Source: Shigella phage SfII. From it: a stretch of DNA of 41,475 nucleotides. Shown one piece after another: positions 30,001 to 33,000 of the stretch. The stretch is from the sequence record NC_021857.1. One strand, 5' to 3'. Each line of letters begins with the position of its first letter. Position 1 is the first letter of the stretch. Made by a program: the position numbers.

Positions 30001-33000
30001 GTGTCTCTTCCTGACGTCGAGGATGTGGACAACGCCGATATTAACCAGCGTCTGCTGGAAGTCATTGAACAGATCGGCAGTTATTCAAAACAGATTCGTT
30101 CAGCAATTGAAGACGGTGTAGTGGAACCGCATGAGAAGACAGCAATTAACGACGAGCTGTATCTCTCAATTTCGAAGCTGCAGGAGCATGCAGCACTGGT
30201 CTACAAAATCTTTTGCATTTCAGAAAGTAATGACGCCCGCGAGTGTGCAGCTCCGGGCGCCGTGGCGTGTCGTGACTGTGGAGAAACTAACGCATGAACA
30301 GTTTAACAACACACTACCGTCGCTCGCAACTGATTGCGCTTCCTGTACCGGGTGGAAAAGCGAAGGTGGAGTATTGCTATGCAGTGAATGTACCAGGTGA
30401 CAGGGAAATTGTAACCCACAGCTTTGCAGAGTGGGCTGTGGGTGATTTCAACCGGCAGAAGGAGACAGTCCTTTGCGACAAGTTAACCGCTGGTTCAAAG
30501 ATCACTACGGAGTGCCCGTCAGAGTCATTCGTTGGGAGCCGGAAACACAACGAGTTATCTACCTCCGTGAAGGCTATGAGCATGAGTGCTTCAGCCCGCT
30601 CGAACAGTTTCGTCGTAAATTCAGGGAAATAGAGGTCGGTCATGAGCACTAAATTAACCGGCTATGTATGGGATGGTTGCGCAGCGTCAGGCATGAAATT
30701 ATCCAGCGTGGCAATTATGGCCCGCCTGGCTGATTTCAGTAATGACGAAGGTGTGTGCTGGCCATCAATTGAAACCATTGCCCGTCAGATTGGCGCGGGG
30801 ATGAGTACCGTCAGGACGGCTATCGCACGGCTGGAAGCAGAAGGCTGGTTAACGCGTAAGGCGCGTCGCCAGGGTAACCGCAATGCGTCGAATGTTTATC
30901 AGCTTAACGTTGCGAAGCTTCAGGCAGCGGCATTTTCTCAATTGTCAGATTCTGACCCGTCAAAATCTGACGCATCAAAATCTGACCCGTCAAAATTTGA
31001 TGCGTCGAAATCAGGCAAAAAAGCGGGTTTTCACCCGTCAGAATCTGGCGGGGATCCGTCAGTAAAATCAAAACATGATCCGTCAGATAAAAAACCTTCT
31101 CGTCCGGACGCTTCGCAACCGGACACGCAGACGGATGAACAGGATTTTTTAACTCGCCATCCTGATGCGGTTGTATTCAGCCCTAAAAAGCGCCAGTGGG
31201 GGACGCAGGATGATTTGACCTGCGCACAGTGGCTCTGGAAAAAAATCATCGCCCTGTACGAGCAGGCTGCCGAATGTGACGGCGAGGTGGTTCGTCCCAA
31301 AGAACCGAACTGGACAGCCTGGGCAAACGAAATTCGCCTGATGTGTGTGCAGGATGGTCGTACTCACAAACAAATCTGCGAGATGTACAGCCGCGTCAGC
31401 CGCGATCCGTTCTGGTGCCGTAACGTGCTCAGCCCGTCGAAGCTGCGGGAAAAATGGGATGAGCTTTCCCTGCGCTTATCGCCGTCCGTCAGCACGTACA
31501 CAGAAAAACGCGAAGACCCGTACTTCAAAGCCAGTTACGACAATGTGGACTACAGCCAGATCCCGGCAGGATTCAGGGGGTGAGCATGAGTCTTTTGAAT
31601 GACGTTCAGAAATTCATTGAAGCCCATCCGGGCTGTACTTCCGGAGACATTGCGGATGCTTTTGCAGGTTACTCACGGCAGCGCGTTCTGCAGTCAGCAA
31701 GCAAGTTACGTCAGAGTGGGCGTGTGGCTCACCGTTGTGAAGGAGATACACACAGACATTTCCCGCGCCTGACTGAGAGAGCGCAGGATCCGGAACCACA
31801 ACCAGTTCGTGAAACCAGACCTGTGCGCAATTTCTATGTCGGCACTAACGACCCGCGGGTGATTTTGTGCCTGACCCGCCAGGCGGAAGAACTGGAGTCC
31901 AGGGGCTTATACCGTCGTGCTGCAACGGTGTGGATGGCGGCATTCCGTGAAAGCCACTCCCAGCCAGAACGAAACAATTTTCTGGCGCGTCGTGAACGGT
32001 GTTTACGGAAAAGCAGCAAGCGCGCTGTATCAGGTGATGAGTGGTATCTGTCAGGAATTACGTGGGGGTGAATGAGTAATAAATATTGCCAGGCGCTGGT
32101 GGAACTGCGGAACAAACCAGCCCATGAACTGAAGGAAGTGGGTGATCAGTGGCGCACGCCGGACAACATTTTCTGGGGAATTAACACCCTGTTTGGCCCG
32201 TTTGTTCTGGATCTGTTCACTGACGGTGATAACGCCAAATGTGCCGCGTATTACACGGCGGAAGACAACGCGCTGGCGCATGACTGGTCAGAACGCCTTG
32301 CGGAGCTTAAAGGTGCTGCCTTTGGTAATCCTCCATACAGCCGCGCCAGTCAGCATGAGGGGCAATACATCACCGGCATGCGTTACATCATGAAACATGC
32401 CAGTGCCATGCGTGATAAGGGCGGGCGCTATGTTTTCCTGATCAAAGCTGCCACCAGCGAAGTGTGGTGGCCGGAAGATGCAGATCATATTGCTTTTATT
32501 CGCGGGCGTATTGGTTTTGAACTGCCTGTCTGGTTTATCCCGAAAGACGAGAAGCAGGTACCGACAGGAGCTTTTTTCGCTGGTGCTATTGCTGTTTTTG
32601 ACAAGACCTGGAAGGGACCGGCAATCAGCTACATCGGGCGCGATGAACTTGAGGCATGTGGTGAGGCGTTTCTGGCGCAGGTTCGCCAGCAGGCGGAAAA
32701 ACTGGTCAGGGAGATGGTGGCATGACGACGTTAACTCAATGCCAGCAGCAGGTGCTGGATATGCTGATTTCTTACCAGAAAGAGCGTGGCTTTCCGCCAA
32801 CCAATCAGGAGGTGGCAACCATGCTGGGATACCGTTCAGTGAATGCAGCGGTAGAGCATCTTCGTGCACTGGAGAAAAAAGGCGTCATCACGATAAAGCG
32901 TGGCGTGGCCCGGGGGATAACGCTTCATACCGCGGTGAAGGACGACGACAGCGAGGCGGTCGGGATTATCCGCGCACTGCTTGCCGGTGAGGAAAACGCC

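What the first reader, a model, noticed from the sequence alone, without database searches (positions are those of the whole stretch)
30952..31110. Iteron-type origin embedded in the replication initiator gene
Four consecutive 15-bp repeats (TCTGACCCGTCAAAA-like) plus further CCGTCAG-containing repeats and an A-rich stretch lie inside the coding sequence of the HTH initiator, encoding the SDSDPSKSDASKSDPSKFDASKSG linker. This mirrors ori-lambda inside gene O. The gene downstream is not a recognisable P/DnaC-type helicase loader, so the replication-loading strategy may differ from lambda.
Basis: partly seen in the sequence, partly recalled or inferred. Interest (0 to 1): 0.45.

Follow-up and report, generated by a model that had tools for sequence, protein, structure and literature searches.

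The report
Phage replication origin inside initiator gene
A cluster of short DNA repeats inside a prophage's replication-initiator gene is very probably the phage's origin of replication, laid out like the textbook lambda origin, but this phage has no helicase-loader gene and its initiator ends in a short tail that matches the host restart protein DnaT.

Summary
At 30944-31100 there are four contiguous 15-bp repeats and three spaced copies of the same dyad-symmetric core, TGAY-SC-RTCA. They lie inside the 313-aa initiator gene (30642-31583) of an SfIV-like lambdoid prophage.

The repeats code for a predicted disordered linker. It sits between an N-terminal winged-helix domain (HTH_36) and a C-terminal domain homologous to the lambda O C-terminal domain.

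Three tests show selection on the DNA itself:
- Across 67 homologues from different species, synonymous-codon identity is 0.74-0.96 in codons 101-160 and 0.34-0.56 in the better-conserved HTH domain.
- Ser in the D(P/A)S motif is TCA in 88% of cases, against 17% elsewhere in the same genes.
- Initiators with other N-terminal domains carry different repeats at the same position.

Lambda O has the same topology. The lambda-type origin reading is therefore supported. It is a new member of a known kind and has no experimental test yet.

The loading step does differ from lambda. The window has no P, DnaC or DnaB gene. The initiator ends in ...SQIPAGFRG, like E. coli DnaT (...SQIPPGFRG). In relatives, tail type tracks loader type: DWIYG tails go with lambda P, and SEPDxxIPPGFRG tails go with a phage DnaC. 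This suggests a DnaT-like docking peptide, but that is inference only.

The parts
30642..31583 (+). Replication initiator gene (313 aa), ~99% identical to SfIV gp41, which is annotated 'primosomal protein' or 'replication protein O'
   Evidence: ORF list; PHROG 391 'replication initiation O-like', E 1e-135; megablast to SfIV and Kati; SfIV annotation
30642..30935 (+). Coding region for the N-terminal winged-helix DNA-binding domain (aa 1-98, Pfam HTH_36); presumed iteron reader
30945..31130 (+). Coding region for the predicted disordered interdomain linker (aa 102-163) that houses all the repeats
   Evidence: pLDDT <50 for residues 102-146 and 148-163; synonymous-codon identity 0.74-0.96 in codons 101-160
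30951..31010 (+). Repeat family a: four contiguous 15-bp iterons (TCTGACCCGTCAAAA / TCTGACGCATCAAAA / TCTGACCCGTCAAAA / TTTGATGCGTCGAAA). Each is a near-palindrome, TCTGAC-NN-GTCAAA. An extra half-site GTCAGA lies at 30944-30949.
   Evidence: TRF; the repeat finder direct and inverted; core-motif hits. Copy number is 0-6 in other species and about 10 in P0047.
31026..31048 (+). Repeat family b: GGTTTTCACCCGTCAGAATCTGG, containing the palindrome CAGA-A-TCTG. It is nearly invariant among relatives and present in 1-3 copies in some.
   Evidence: 4-way DNA alignment; divergent variants carry CCTCCAGAATCTGG x3; core hit at 31031
31053..31100 (+). Repeat family c: two 24-bp units (GATCCGTCAGTAAAATCAAAACAT / GATCCGTCAGATAAAAAACCTTCT), each starting with a GATC Dam site. 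This is the most strongly conserved DNA of the gene. It overlaps the least stable, A-rich 40-mer at 31061-31100, which is the candidate unwinding region.
   Evidence: the repeat finder D4; synonymous identity 0.96 in codons 141-150; stability profile and GATC positions 31053 and 31077; GATC enrichment in 74/74 homologues
31137..31481 (+). Coding region for the C-terminal helical domain (aa 166-280), homologous to the C-terminal domain of lambda O
   Evidence: tblastn to lambda and Stx phage O genes, 39% id, E 1e-17; BLASTP to lambda-type O, 31% over 216 aa, E 7e-26; model pLDDT up to 98
31554..31580 (+). Codons for the extreme C-terminal tail SQIPAGFRG, matching the E. coli DnaT C-terminus SQIPPGFRG. 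It is predicted disordered. The F-R-G codons (TTCAGGGGG) also form the Shine-Dalgarno sequence of the next gene.
   Evidence: BLASTP 8/9 identities; DnaT sequence; hhalign tail-only match, E 2e-4; tail invariant in DnaT orthologues; DNA comparison
31580..32071 (+). Downstream gene: PerC-family protein with a possible N-terminal wHTH. It is not a helicase loader and is listed only as context.
   Evidence: Pfam PerC E 1e-9; PHROG 1324 'transcriptional activator'; NCBIfam ANR_neg_reg weak hit
32072..32725 (+). Phage Dam-type N6-adenine methyltransferase. It is context for the conserved GATC sites in the origin.
   Evidence: Pfam Dam E 1e-45

Best explanation
Segment ~30944-31100 is the prophage's origin of replication. 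It is embedded in the part of the initiator gene that codes for a disordered interdomain linker.

Proposed mechanism, with each step marked as shown or inferred:
1. The initiator's N-terminal winged-helix domain binds, probably as dimers, to the dyad-symmetric repeats: four contiguous 15-bp iterons and three spaced copies, core TGAY-SC-RTCA (inferred).
2. This builds an O-some-like nucleoprotein complex (inferred).
3. Helped by rightward transcription through the gene, the complex melts the adjacent A-rich, least stable stretch at 31061-31100 (inferred).
4. The lambda-O-like C-terminal domain and the flexible C-terminal tail then recruit the host DnaB-DnaC helicase/loader, because the phage encodes no loader (inferred).

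Shown here:
- the repeats and their dyad symmetry;
- their position in a disordered linker between two folded domains;
- nucleotide-level purifying selection on them;
- their co-variation with the N-terminal domain;
- homology of the C-terminal domain to lambda O;
- absence of any loader or helicase gene in the window.
For: 1. The repeats are real and non-random.

2. They sit in a predicted disordered linker (pLDDT <50, aa 102-163) between a wHTH domain and a lambda-O-like C-terminal domain.

3. There is DNA-level constraint.
- Among four phage homologues, 25/35 aa-invariant degenerate codons are codon-invariant in the linker, against 12/69 in the HTH domain.
- Among 67 species-level homologues chosen only by the HTH domain, synonymous-codon identity is 0.74-0.96 in codons 101-160. 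It is 0.34-0.56 in codons 1-100 and 0.49-0.60 after codon 160. Amino-acid identity is lower in the linker.
- Ser in the D(P/A)S motif is TCA in 350/396 cases, against 235/1387 elsewhere.

4. The core-motif cluster is at the same place in nearly all 74 homologues across more than a dozen genera, whatever C-terminal domain follows.

5. The repeats co-vary with the N-terminal domain.
- Other N-terminal types carry other repeats at the same position. In mEp460_4F5 and PhiR42_1 these are 23-bp repeats, so not a multiple of 3. SfV has its own family.
- Diverged type-A variants have correspondingly diverged repeats.

6. Mosaic joints fall just right of the repeats. phiNP shares gene nt 2-479 and mEp460_4F5 shares nt 443-942. 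The HTH domain and the repeats therefore travel together.

7. Lambda has the same layout: iterons at O-gene nt 349-435, followed by the homologous C-terminal domain. In lambda the origin lies in the middle of O, and each iteron is an inverted repeat (PMC7466680).
Against: - There is no experimental evidence for this element, and none was found in the held literature.
- The A+T-rich region is weak compared with lambda's. The least stable 40-mer is only in the least-stable ~8% of the window.
- All copies are in one reading frame (spacings 15, 33, 21 and 24 bp), so frame cannot separate DNA repeats from peptide repeats in this phage. That separation rests on synonymous-site statistics.
- Contiguous 15-bp sites (about 1.4 helical turns) may not all be occupied at once.
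- The core motif was defined post hoc from the cluster.
- Sequences in the comparative sets are phylogenetically related, so the counts are not independent events.
Confidence: 0.85

Rival explanations
1. The repeats are only a by-product of a repetitive, low-complexity protein linker (SDPSK-like pentapeptides). Selection acts on the protein and the DNA repeat has no function.
For: The repeat unit is a multiple of 3 and all copies are in one frame. The linker is predicted disordered. Unit number varies freely among relatives, as in slippage-prone linkers.
Against: Amino-acid identity is lower in the linker than in the HTH domain, yet synonymous-site identity is far higher. Ser is TCA in 88% of motif positions against 17% elsewhere, and the Pro/Ala third base is a purine in 96%. 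In the sister N-terminal type the repeats have a 23-24-bp period and are read in different frames.
Confidence: 0.04
2. The repeats are binding sites for the initiator or another regulator, but they serve autoregulation, copy-number control (titration or handcuffing) or transcription control. The true origin lies elsewhere.
For: In iteron plasmids the same repeats serve control as well as initiation (general knowledge; review PMC4980987 listed). The tandem array varies in copy number while the distal elements are the most conserved. This could mean functional subdivision.
Against: No other repeat cluster or markedly AT-rich candidate origin lies in the early region. The least stable DNA of the initiator gene coincides with the distal repeats. 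The position is topologically identical to ori-lambda, in a protein whose C-terminal domain is homologous to O.
Confidence: 0.06
3. The conserved DNA is a recombination 'boundary sequence', that is, a joint used to shuffle N- and C-terminal modules among lambdoid phages. Its conservation reflects recent exchange rather than function.
For: Mosaic breakpoints lie at the right edge of the repeats. The same N-terminal domain and linker are joined to at least three C-terminal domain types.
Against: Recent exchange would raise amino-acid and synonymous identity together. Here amino-acid identity is low while specific nucleotide positions are fixed: the outer half-sites TCTGA / TCAAA are invariant and the central YSCR is variable. 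The pattern holds across genera from Escherichia to Providencia.
Confidence: 0.03
4. The conserved GATC-containing distal repeats are primarily a Dam/SeqA-dependent regulatory element, for example timing or sequestration. They may be read by the phage Dam methylase or by the downstream wHTH-PerC protein, rather than being initiator-binding iterons.
For: GATC density is about 10/kb in the linker against 2.65/kb elsewhere in these genes, with at least one site in 74/74 homologues. Dam, Dcm or MT-A70 methylase genes follow the initiator in most relatives.
Against: The GATC sites are part of larger 24-bp repeats that share the CCGTCAG core with the tandem iterons. Methylation control is compatible with origin function, as at oriC, rather than an alternative to it.
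Confidence: 0.02

Closest known systems
ori-lambda inside gene O of phage lambda and Stx phages
   Same: - Iterons with internal dyad symmetry lie in the middle of the initiator gene, between an N-terminal DNA-binding domain and a C-terminal domain. An A-rich stretch follows them.
- The C-terminal domain is homologous: 31% over 216 aa, E 7e-26.
- Extra iterons add residues to the protein in both systems (PMC7466680).
   Different: - The N-terminal domain is HTH_36, a winged helix, not Pfam Phage_rep_O.
- The iterons are 15 bp and contiguous. Lambda's repeat copies (found as 20-nt units) are spaced 20-24 bp start to start.
- The AT-rich region is much weaker.
- No P gene follows.
- The C-terminus is ...IPAGFRG instead of lambda O's ...NTDWIYGVDL.
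Origins of other lambdoid phages with swapped initiator specificities (phi80, 82, P22; classical comparative work, recalled from memory and not re-read here)
   Same: Iteron sequence and the initiator N-terminal domain change together as a specificity module, while the C-terminal part matches the loader. The same pattern is seen here across N-terminal types A, B, C and D and across tail/loader pairs.
   Different: I found no description of this N-terminal family or its repeat set as an origin in the searched library.
Iteron-containing plasmid replicons (pSC101, R6K, RK2, P1 and F types)
   Same: Multiple direct repeats are bound by a winged-helix initiator, and repeat copy number is variable.
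   Different: Plasmid iterons are typically about 17-22 bp, spaced about two helical turns apart, and intergenic with DnaA boxes (general knowledge; PMC4980987 listed). Here the repeats are intragenic and 15-bp contiguous. No DnaA box consensus occurs anywhere in the window.
E. coli DnaT (primosomal protein I, replication-restart adaptor)
   Same: - The extreme C-terminal tail matches: window SQIPAGFRG against DnaT SQIPPGFRG. The relative PhiR42_1 matches 14/20, E 9e-8.
- The tail is invariant in DnaT orthologues.
- The gene order tail-bearing protein -> DnaC is found both in the host (dnaT-dnaC) and in 15 viral loci.
   Different: No homology exists outside the tail. There is no Pfam PF17948 hit, hhalign aligns only 33 tail columns, and no DnaT appears among fold matches. 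Membership in the DnaT family is therefore not supported, and 'primosomal protein' annotations of this gene are misleading.
DnaD-like / 'replisome organizer' domains of Gram-positive phages and bacteria (SPP1 G38P/G39P, DnaD)
   Same: - PHROG hits of the C-terminal domain to 'DnaD-like helicase loader' and 'replisome organizer' families.
- tblastn hits to Bacillus phage replisome organizers.
   Different: The structural scores are low and inconclusive, and the function of the domain in this phage is unknown.

Membership tests
Lambda-type origin embedded in the initiator gene | Cluster of at least 4 direct repeats (iterons) inside the initiator ORF, between its N- and C-terminal domains | tested here: met
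   Seven core sites at 30953-31085, inside the linker (aa 102-163) between the wHTH domain and the O-like C-terminal domain
Lambda-type origin embedded in the initiator gene | Each iteron has internal dyad symmetry | tested here: met
   TCTGAC-CC-GTCAAA. Inverted-repeat arms are 84-92% complementary. Lambda iterons are likewise inverted repeats (PMC7466680).
Lambda-type origin embedded in the initiator gene | Adjacent A+T-rich, easily unwound region | tested here: inconclusive
   31061-31100 is the least stable 40-mer of the origin region and close to the least stable in the whole 29.4-35.3 kb stretch. It is only in the least-stable ~8% of the window, with GC about 0.40-0.43.
Lambda-type origin embedded in the initiator gene | Repeats conserved at nucleotide level beyond what the protein requires | tested here: met
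   Synonymous-codon identity 0.74-0.96 against 0.34-0.56; 25/35 against 12/69 codon-invariant; Ser TCA 88% against 17%
Lambda-type origin embedded in the initiator gene | Iteron sequence co-varies with the initiator's N-terminal DNA-binding domain | tested here: met
   N-terminal types B, C and D and diverged type-A variants carry different repeat sets at the same position. The HTH domain and repeats are inherited together across mosaic joints.
Lambda-type origin embedded in the initiator gene | Initiator binds the iterons and the fragment supports replication | not testable with these tools
   Needs EMSA or footprinting and a plasmid replication assay
Lambda-type origin embedded in the initiator gene | Dedicated helicase loader (P, or DnaC/DnaB analogue) encoded next to the initiator | tested here: not met
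   The next gene is PerC-family. No helicase, loader or primase domain was found in any ORF of at least 90 aa scanned between the integrase gene and Q.
Lambda O protein family | N-terminal Phage_rep_O DNA-binding domain | tested here: not met
   Pfam gives HTH_36/GntR/MarR-type winged helix and no Phage_rep_O hit. BLASTP to lambda-type O aligns only from residue ~70 onward.
Lambda O protein family | C-terminal domain homologous to the lambda O C-terminal (P-interacting) domain | tested here: met
   39% identity over aa 166-277, E 1e-17; E 7e-26 pairwise
Iteron plasmid replicons | Intergenic iterons phased at about two helical turns, with DnaA boxes | tested here: not met
   The repeats are intragenic, 15-bp and contiguous. 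There are 0 matches to TTWTNCACA in the whole window.
DnaT (PF17948) | DnaT three-helix-bundle ssDNA-binding domain | tested here: not met
DnaT (PF17948) | Conserved C-terminal tail ...(S)xPDxxIPPGFRG | tested here: met
   Window ...DYSQIPAGFRG matches 8/9. The tail is invariant in 20 DnaT orthologues.

The most novel reading that the evidence does not exclude
The ...IPxGFRG C-terminal tail may be a portable docking peptide, shared by host DnaT and many phage initiators, that recruits the DnaC-type loader (DnaB6-DnaC6) or another primosome partner. Phages of this type would then initiate at their origin without any loader of their own, by presenting a DnaT-like tail from an origin-bound initiator.

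Evidence that does not exclude this reading, and partly favours it:
- Tail type tracks loader type. DWIYG tails, as in lambda O, are followed by lambda P. WFVGG tails are followed by a distinct DnaC-like gene and/or a DnaB helicase gene: both in 3 of 6 loci by ORF clustering, and both in all 6 by tblastn.
- SEPDxxIPPGFRG-type tails are followed immediately by a close DnaC homologue in 15 viral loci, mirroring host dnaT-dnaC.
- DYSQIPAGFRG tails, the type in the window, are never followed by a loader: 0 of 42 species-level loci and 0 of about 48 viral loci.
- The tail sits on at least 6 N-terminal types and 4 C-terminal domain types, including one viral protein with a complete DnaT C-terminal domain.

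Caveats:
- That same paper suggests the DnaT N-terminal domain, not the tail, as the DnaB/DnaC recruiter.
- The F-R-G codons also form the Shine-Dalgarno sequence of the next gene.
Probability: 0.35. Interest if true: 0.7.

Novelty: new member of a known kind. Interest (0 to 1): 0.4.

Why it matters
This initiator module is very common in E. coli, Shigella, Salmonella and Klebsiella prophages. One 90%-identity cluster has more than 5,000 member sequences. Public records label the gene inconsistently, as 'primosomal protein', 'replication protein O', 'GntR regulator' or 'HTH domain protein'.

Locating its origin gives three practical benefits:
- a correct annotation;
- a defined cis element for building prophage-derived replicons;
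- a basis for interpreting induced-prophage coverage peaks.

The wider interest lies in the loading step. A family of loader-less initiators that share a conserved tail with host DnaT would give a simple genetic handle, a 7-13-residue peptide, on an open question in replication restart: how DnaT-containing complexes bring in DnaB-DnaC.

Tried and rejected
- **Extra CCGTCAG copies.** Copies in other reading frames at 30516, 30782, 30808 and 31486 looked like frame-independent evidence. The two inside the HTH domain are not conserved in homologues. I treat those two as chance.
- **Rfam.** The only hits were sub-threshold 'mir-5880' matches on both strands (27 bits against a gathering score of 97). 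These reflect the palindromic array, so there is no RNA family here.
- **Promoter and terminator scan.** Nothing was above expectation. A small minus-strand hairpin at 31024-31037 is not conserved in relatives.
- **DnaA boxes.** None in the whole window.
- **DnaT homology beyond the tail.** Rejected: a weak BLAST hint (E 0.82) was not confirmed by hhalign or fold search.
- **PDB sequence search.** Only weak MarR-type hits to the HTH domain.
- **Literature.** The SfIV genome paper and the 'Eru' papers on non-lambdoid Stx phage replication regions say nothing about this origin. A search for 'initiator-solo' modules found no text. Papers on DnaT do not assign a partner to its flexible C-terminal ~20 residues.
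- **IMG/VR relatives from the first scan.** All were at least 99% identical and all had 4 units, so they were uninformative for divergence.
- **First simple rule, 'GFRG tail = no loader'.** This had to be revised after the viral scan, because the most DnaT-like tails are followed by a phage DnaC.
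Full report
**What the window is.** The initiator gene region is ~99% identical to Shigella phage SfIV and Escherichia phage Kati. The gene order around the finding is:
- CI-like repressor (28703-29395, minus strand);
- Cro-like HTH (29493-29753);
- CII-like protein (29746-30297);
- two small ORFs;
- the initiator (30642-31583);
- a PerC-family gene;
- Dam methylase, a LexA-DBD-like gene, RusA, KilA-N, DUF968/HNH and Q.

The window is therefore a lambdoid early-right operon. The SfIV genome paper describes a 'replication module' but no origin.

**Observation check.** Tandem Repeats Finder reports a 15-bp x 4.1 array at 30951-31012 with consensus TCTGACCCGTCAAAA. It is the best tandem repeat in the window by a wide margin: score 82-96, against 38 or less for all others.
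- Downstream lie three further copies of the same core, embedded in longer repeats.
- All seven fit a dyad-symmetric core TGAY-SC-RTCA with at most 1 mismatch, at 30953, 30968, 30983, 30998, 31031, 31052 and 31076, all on the + strand.
- Seven sites in 140 bp compares with a maximum cluster of 3 in 300 Markov simulations. The motif was derived from this cluster, so that figure is generous.
- The array is also a string of alternating inverted half-sites, with arms 84-92% complementary.
- The A-rich stretch is real but modest.

**Protein architecture.**
- Residues 23-70 hit Pfam HTH_36.
- The whole protein matches PHROG 391 'replication initiation O-like'.
- Residues ~166-277 are homologous to the C-terminal domain of lambda O itself: 39% identity, E 1e-17 by tblastn, and E 7e-26 pairwise.
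- An AlphaFold model built on 24 homologues gives four parts: a winged-helix domain (aa 1-98); a disordered linker (aa 102-163, pLDDT <50); a confident helical domain (aa 166-280); and a disordered tail (aa 282-313).
- The repeats (codons ~104-153) therefore lie exactly in the unstructured linker, where coding constraints are weakest.

- *Four phage homologues.* Window, Klebsiella Kp4872-1, Eeyore and Citrobacter phiNP share this N-terminal domain. Among them 25 of 35 amino-acid-invariant degenerate codons are also codon-invariant in the linker, against 12 of 69 in the HTH domain.
- *Species-level set.* I collected 80 loci from one-genome-per-species contigs, using only residues 1-100 as the query so that the linker played no part in ascertainment. 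The core-motif cluster is present at gene nt ~290-470 in nearly all of them, with 3-9 sites and almost none elsewhere in the gene. This holds from Escherichia and Citrobacter to Yersinia, Rahnella, Pantoea, Erwinia, Proteus and Providencia.
- *Synonymous sites.* In 67 aligned sequences, synonymous-codon identity among same-residue pairs is 0.34-0.56 in codons 1-100. It rises to 0.74-0.96 in codons 101-160 and falls back to 0.49-0.60 afterwards. Amino-acid identity is lower in the linker. The peak, 0.96, is at codons 141-150, which are the distal 24-bp repeats.
- *Codon choice.* Ser in the linker's [DE][PATS]S motif is TCA in 350/396 cases, against 235/1387 elsewhere in the same genes. The third base of Pro is a purine in 96%, against 66% elsewhere.

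This pattern is what nucleotide-level purifying selection predicts. Neither protein-level selection nor recent recombination predicts it.

**Co-variation and mosaicism.**
- The same HTH domain and linker are joined to unrelated C-terminal domains. Eeyore and phiNP carry the TIGR02220 domain.
- The lambda-O-like C-terminal domain is in turn joined to other N-terminal domains.
- Each N-terminal type brings its own repeats at the same position. mEp460_4F5 and PhiR42_1 have 4-5 copies of a 23-24-bp repeat (CATCGGGTCAAAATGAC-like), read in different frames. SfV has GTGCAGGAGATTCAC-type repeats.
- A 56-60%-identical N-terminal type has GTTGACCCGTCAAAT x4.
- Diverged type-A variants have drifted repeats. 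Proteus has CCTCCAGAATCTGG x3 and GATCCACAAGTAAATTCAAAACAT x3. Trabulsiella has a TTCAGATTCTGAACG array.
- Megablast joints fall at the right edge of the repeats: phiNP shares gene nt 2-479 and mEp460_4F5 shares nt 443-942.

The DNA-binding domain and the repeats therefore behave as one specificity module.

**Comparison with lambda, done here.** In a lambda-type O gene the four iterons lie at gene nt 349-435. They are followed by an inverted repeat and then by the domain that aligns with the window protein. The window's repeats lie at gene nt ~303-459. The literature states that the lambdoid origin (iterons plus an AT-rich tract) lies in the middle of O, that each iteron is an inverted repeat, and that extra iterons add residues to O (PMC7466680). 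The window shows the same behaviour: the number of 15-bp units ranges from 0 to 6 in other species and reaches about 10 in one Klebsiella protein, with matching pentapeptide numbers.

**Anatomy of the proposed origin.** There are three repeat families:
- (a) four contiguous 15-bp iterons, 30951-31010, with an extra half-site at 30944-30949;
- (b) GGTTTTCACCCGTCAGAATCTGG, 31026-31048;
- (c) two 24-bp units, 31053-31100, each beginning with GATC.

Further points:
- GATC is about 4-fold enriched in the linker of all 74 homologues, and the phage encodes a Dam methylase. Methylation or SeqA control is possible but untested.
- The least stable DNA of the region is 31061-31100.
- No DnaA-box consensus exists in the window.

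**Helicase loading.** No ORF of at least 90 aa scanned between the integrase gene and Q encodes a helicase, loader or primase.
- *The tail.* The protein's last residues, SQIPAGFRG, match the C-terminus of E. coli DnaT (SQIPPGFRG). The relative PhiR42_1 matches 14/20 residues, E 9e-8. This probably explains the stray 'primosomal protein' annotations.
- *Extent of similarity.* The match is limited to the tail: hhalign aligns 33 columns with E 2e-4 and nothing else. It is at protein rather than DNA level, 63-71% nt identity with many synonymous differences. The tail is invariant in DnaT orthologues.
- *Species-level type-A initiators.* None of 42 GFR(G/S/T)-tailed proteins is followed by a loader. 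Tail-less 'WFVGG' proteins are followed by a DnaC-like gene and/or a DnaB helicase gene: both in 3 of 6 loci by ORF clustering, and both in all 6 by tblastn. One further locus has a DnaC-like gene and one a lambda-P-like gene downstream.
- *A confirmed prediction.* Two Pantoea homologues with the same HTH domain, linker and O-like domain end in ...NTDWIYGIEE, like lambda O. I predicted they would be followed by lambda P, and they are (PF06992).
- *Viral scan.* I scanned viral contigs for ORF ends encoding PxGFRG-stop; the pattern was codon-restricted, so the sample is biased. The tail occurs on at least 6 N-terminal and 4 C-terminal domain types, including one protein with a complete DnaT C-terminal domain. 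The most DnaT-like tails (...SEPDTEIPPGFRG) are followed immediately by a DnaC homologue (~48% identical to E. coli DnaC) in 15 loci, mirroring host dnaT-dnaC. The window-type tail (...DYSQIPAGFRG) is never followed by one.
- *Conclusion on loading.* The tail type tracks the loader type. The simplest reading is that the tail is the loader-docking peptide and that this phage uses host DnaC-DnaB. This is inference.
- *Literature.* The held papers call the DnaT C-terminal ~20 residues flexible, assign them no partner, and say that recruitment of DnaB/DnaC by the preprimosome is not understood. The 2026 structure paper favours the DnaT N-terminal domain as the recruiter.
- *Confound.* The F-R-G codons double as the ribosome-binding site of the next gene, both in dnaT-dnaC and here.

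**Rival explanations.** I considered four: a purely protein-level repeat, regulatory sites without origin function, a recombination boundary sequence, and a methylation element. None accounts as well for all of the following together: synonymous-site constraint, co-variation with the HTH domain, the topology shared with lambda, and homology of the C-terminal domain. Together I give them about 0.15.

**Verdict.** The element is best described as a lambda-type iteron origin belonging to a different initiator specificity family: an HTH_36 winged helix with 15-bp palindromic iterons. It sits in an initiator-only replication module. As an origin it is a new member of a well-known kind, and a specialist would not be surprised, so I score it as of moderate-to-low interest. 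The loader-less design with a DnaT-like tail is the part that could matter more, and it is only circumstantially supported.

Noticed in passing
window 31554-31580 (and L085, L087, L083, L084 gene ends): The initiator ends in ...SQIPAGFRG, matching the invariant C-terminal tail of E. coli DnaT. The same tail is appended to at least 6 N-terminal and 4 C-terminal domain types of phage initiators, and tail type tracks the loader gene that follows.
   Followed up: yes
L217 (IMGVR_UViG_2597490225_000006), ORF ending at 2716: A viral protein of 276 aa fuses an unrelated N-terminal domain (MARIRTIKPEFWTDEDL...) to what looks like a complete DnaT C-terminal domain plus tail (...MGKFAISPDWKPDPDFRKQAAIWG...IPPGFRG). 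This suggests an evolutionary link between DnaT and phage initiators.
   Followed up: partly
window 31053 and 31077; gene nt 280-540 of L089-L168: GATC sites are about 4-fold enriched in the origin-bearing linker of all 74 homologues (about 10/kb against 2.65/kb). DNA methylase genes (Dam, Dcm or MT-A70) follow the initiator in most relatives. This hints at methylation or SeqA control of the origin.
   Followed up: partly
window 30294-30632 and 30473-30652: Two + strand ORFs overlap by about 160 nt in different frames, and both have strong family support. The 112-aa ORF hits PHROG 1170 at E 6e-70. The 59-aa ORF hits Pfam DUF4222 at E 9e-19 and PHROG 1343 at E 2e-34. SfIV annotates only the longer one. 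Which is expressed, or whether both are, is unclear.
   Followed up: no
P0047, P0049, P0009, P0063 against window 30951-31010: The number of 15-bp / pentapeptide units varies from about 2 to about 10 among otherwise close relatives. All 78 IMG/VR near-identical relatives whose initiator gene could be located have exactly 4.
   Followed up: partly
whole window: There is no match to the DnaA-box consensus TTWTNCACA on either strand in 41.5 kb, where about 4.3 are expected by chance.
   Followed up: no
L101, L107, L124, L135 and others (about 22 loci): A third group of type-A initiators (335-351 aa, ending ...W[KQ]..A.R...AA) lacks the GFRG tail and also has no loader downstream. Its C-terminal extension may hold yet another recruitment device.
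   Followed up: no
window 35581-37195, minus strand: Two minus-strand ORFs (194 and 340 aa) sit between the Q gene and the lysis genes, opposite to the surrounding operon. I did not examine them; they could be an insertion or a moron.
   Followed up: no
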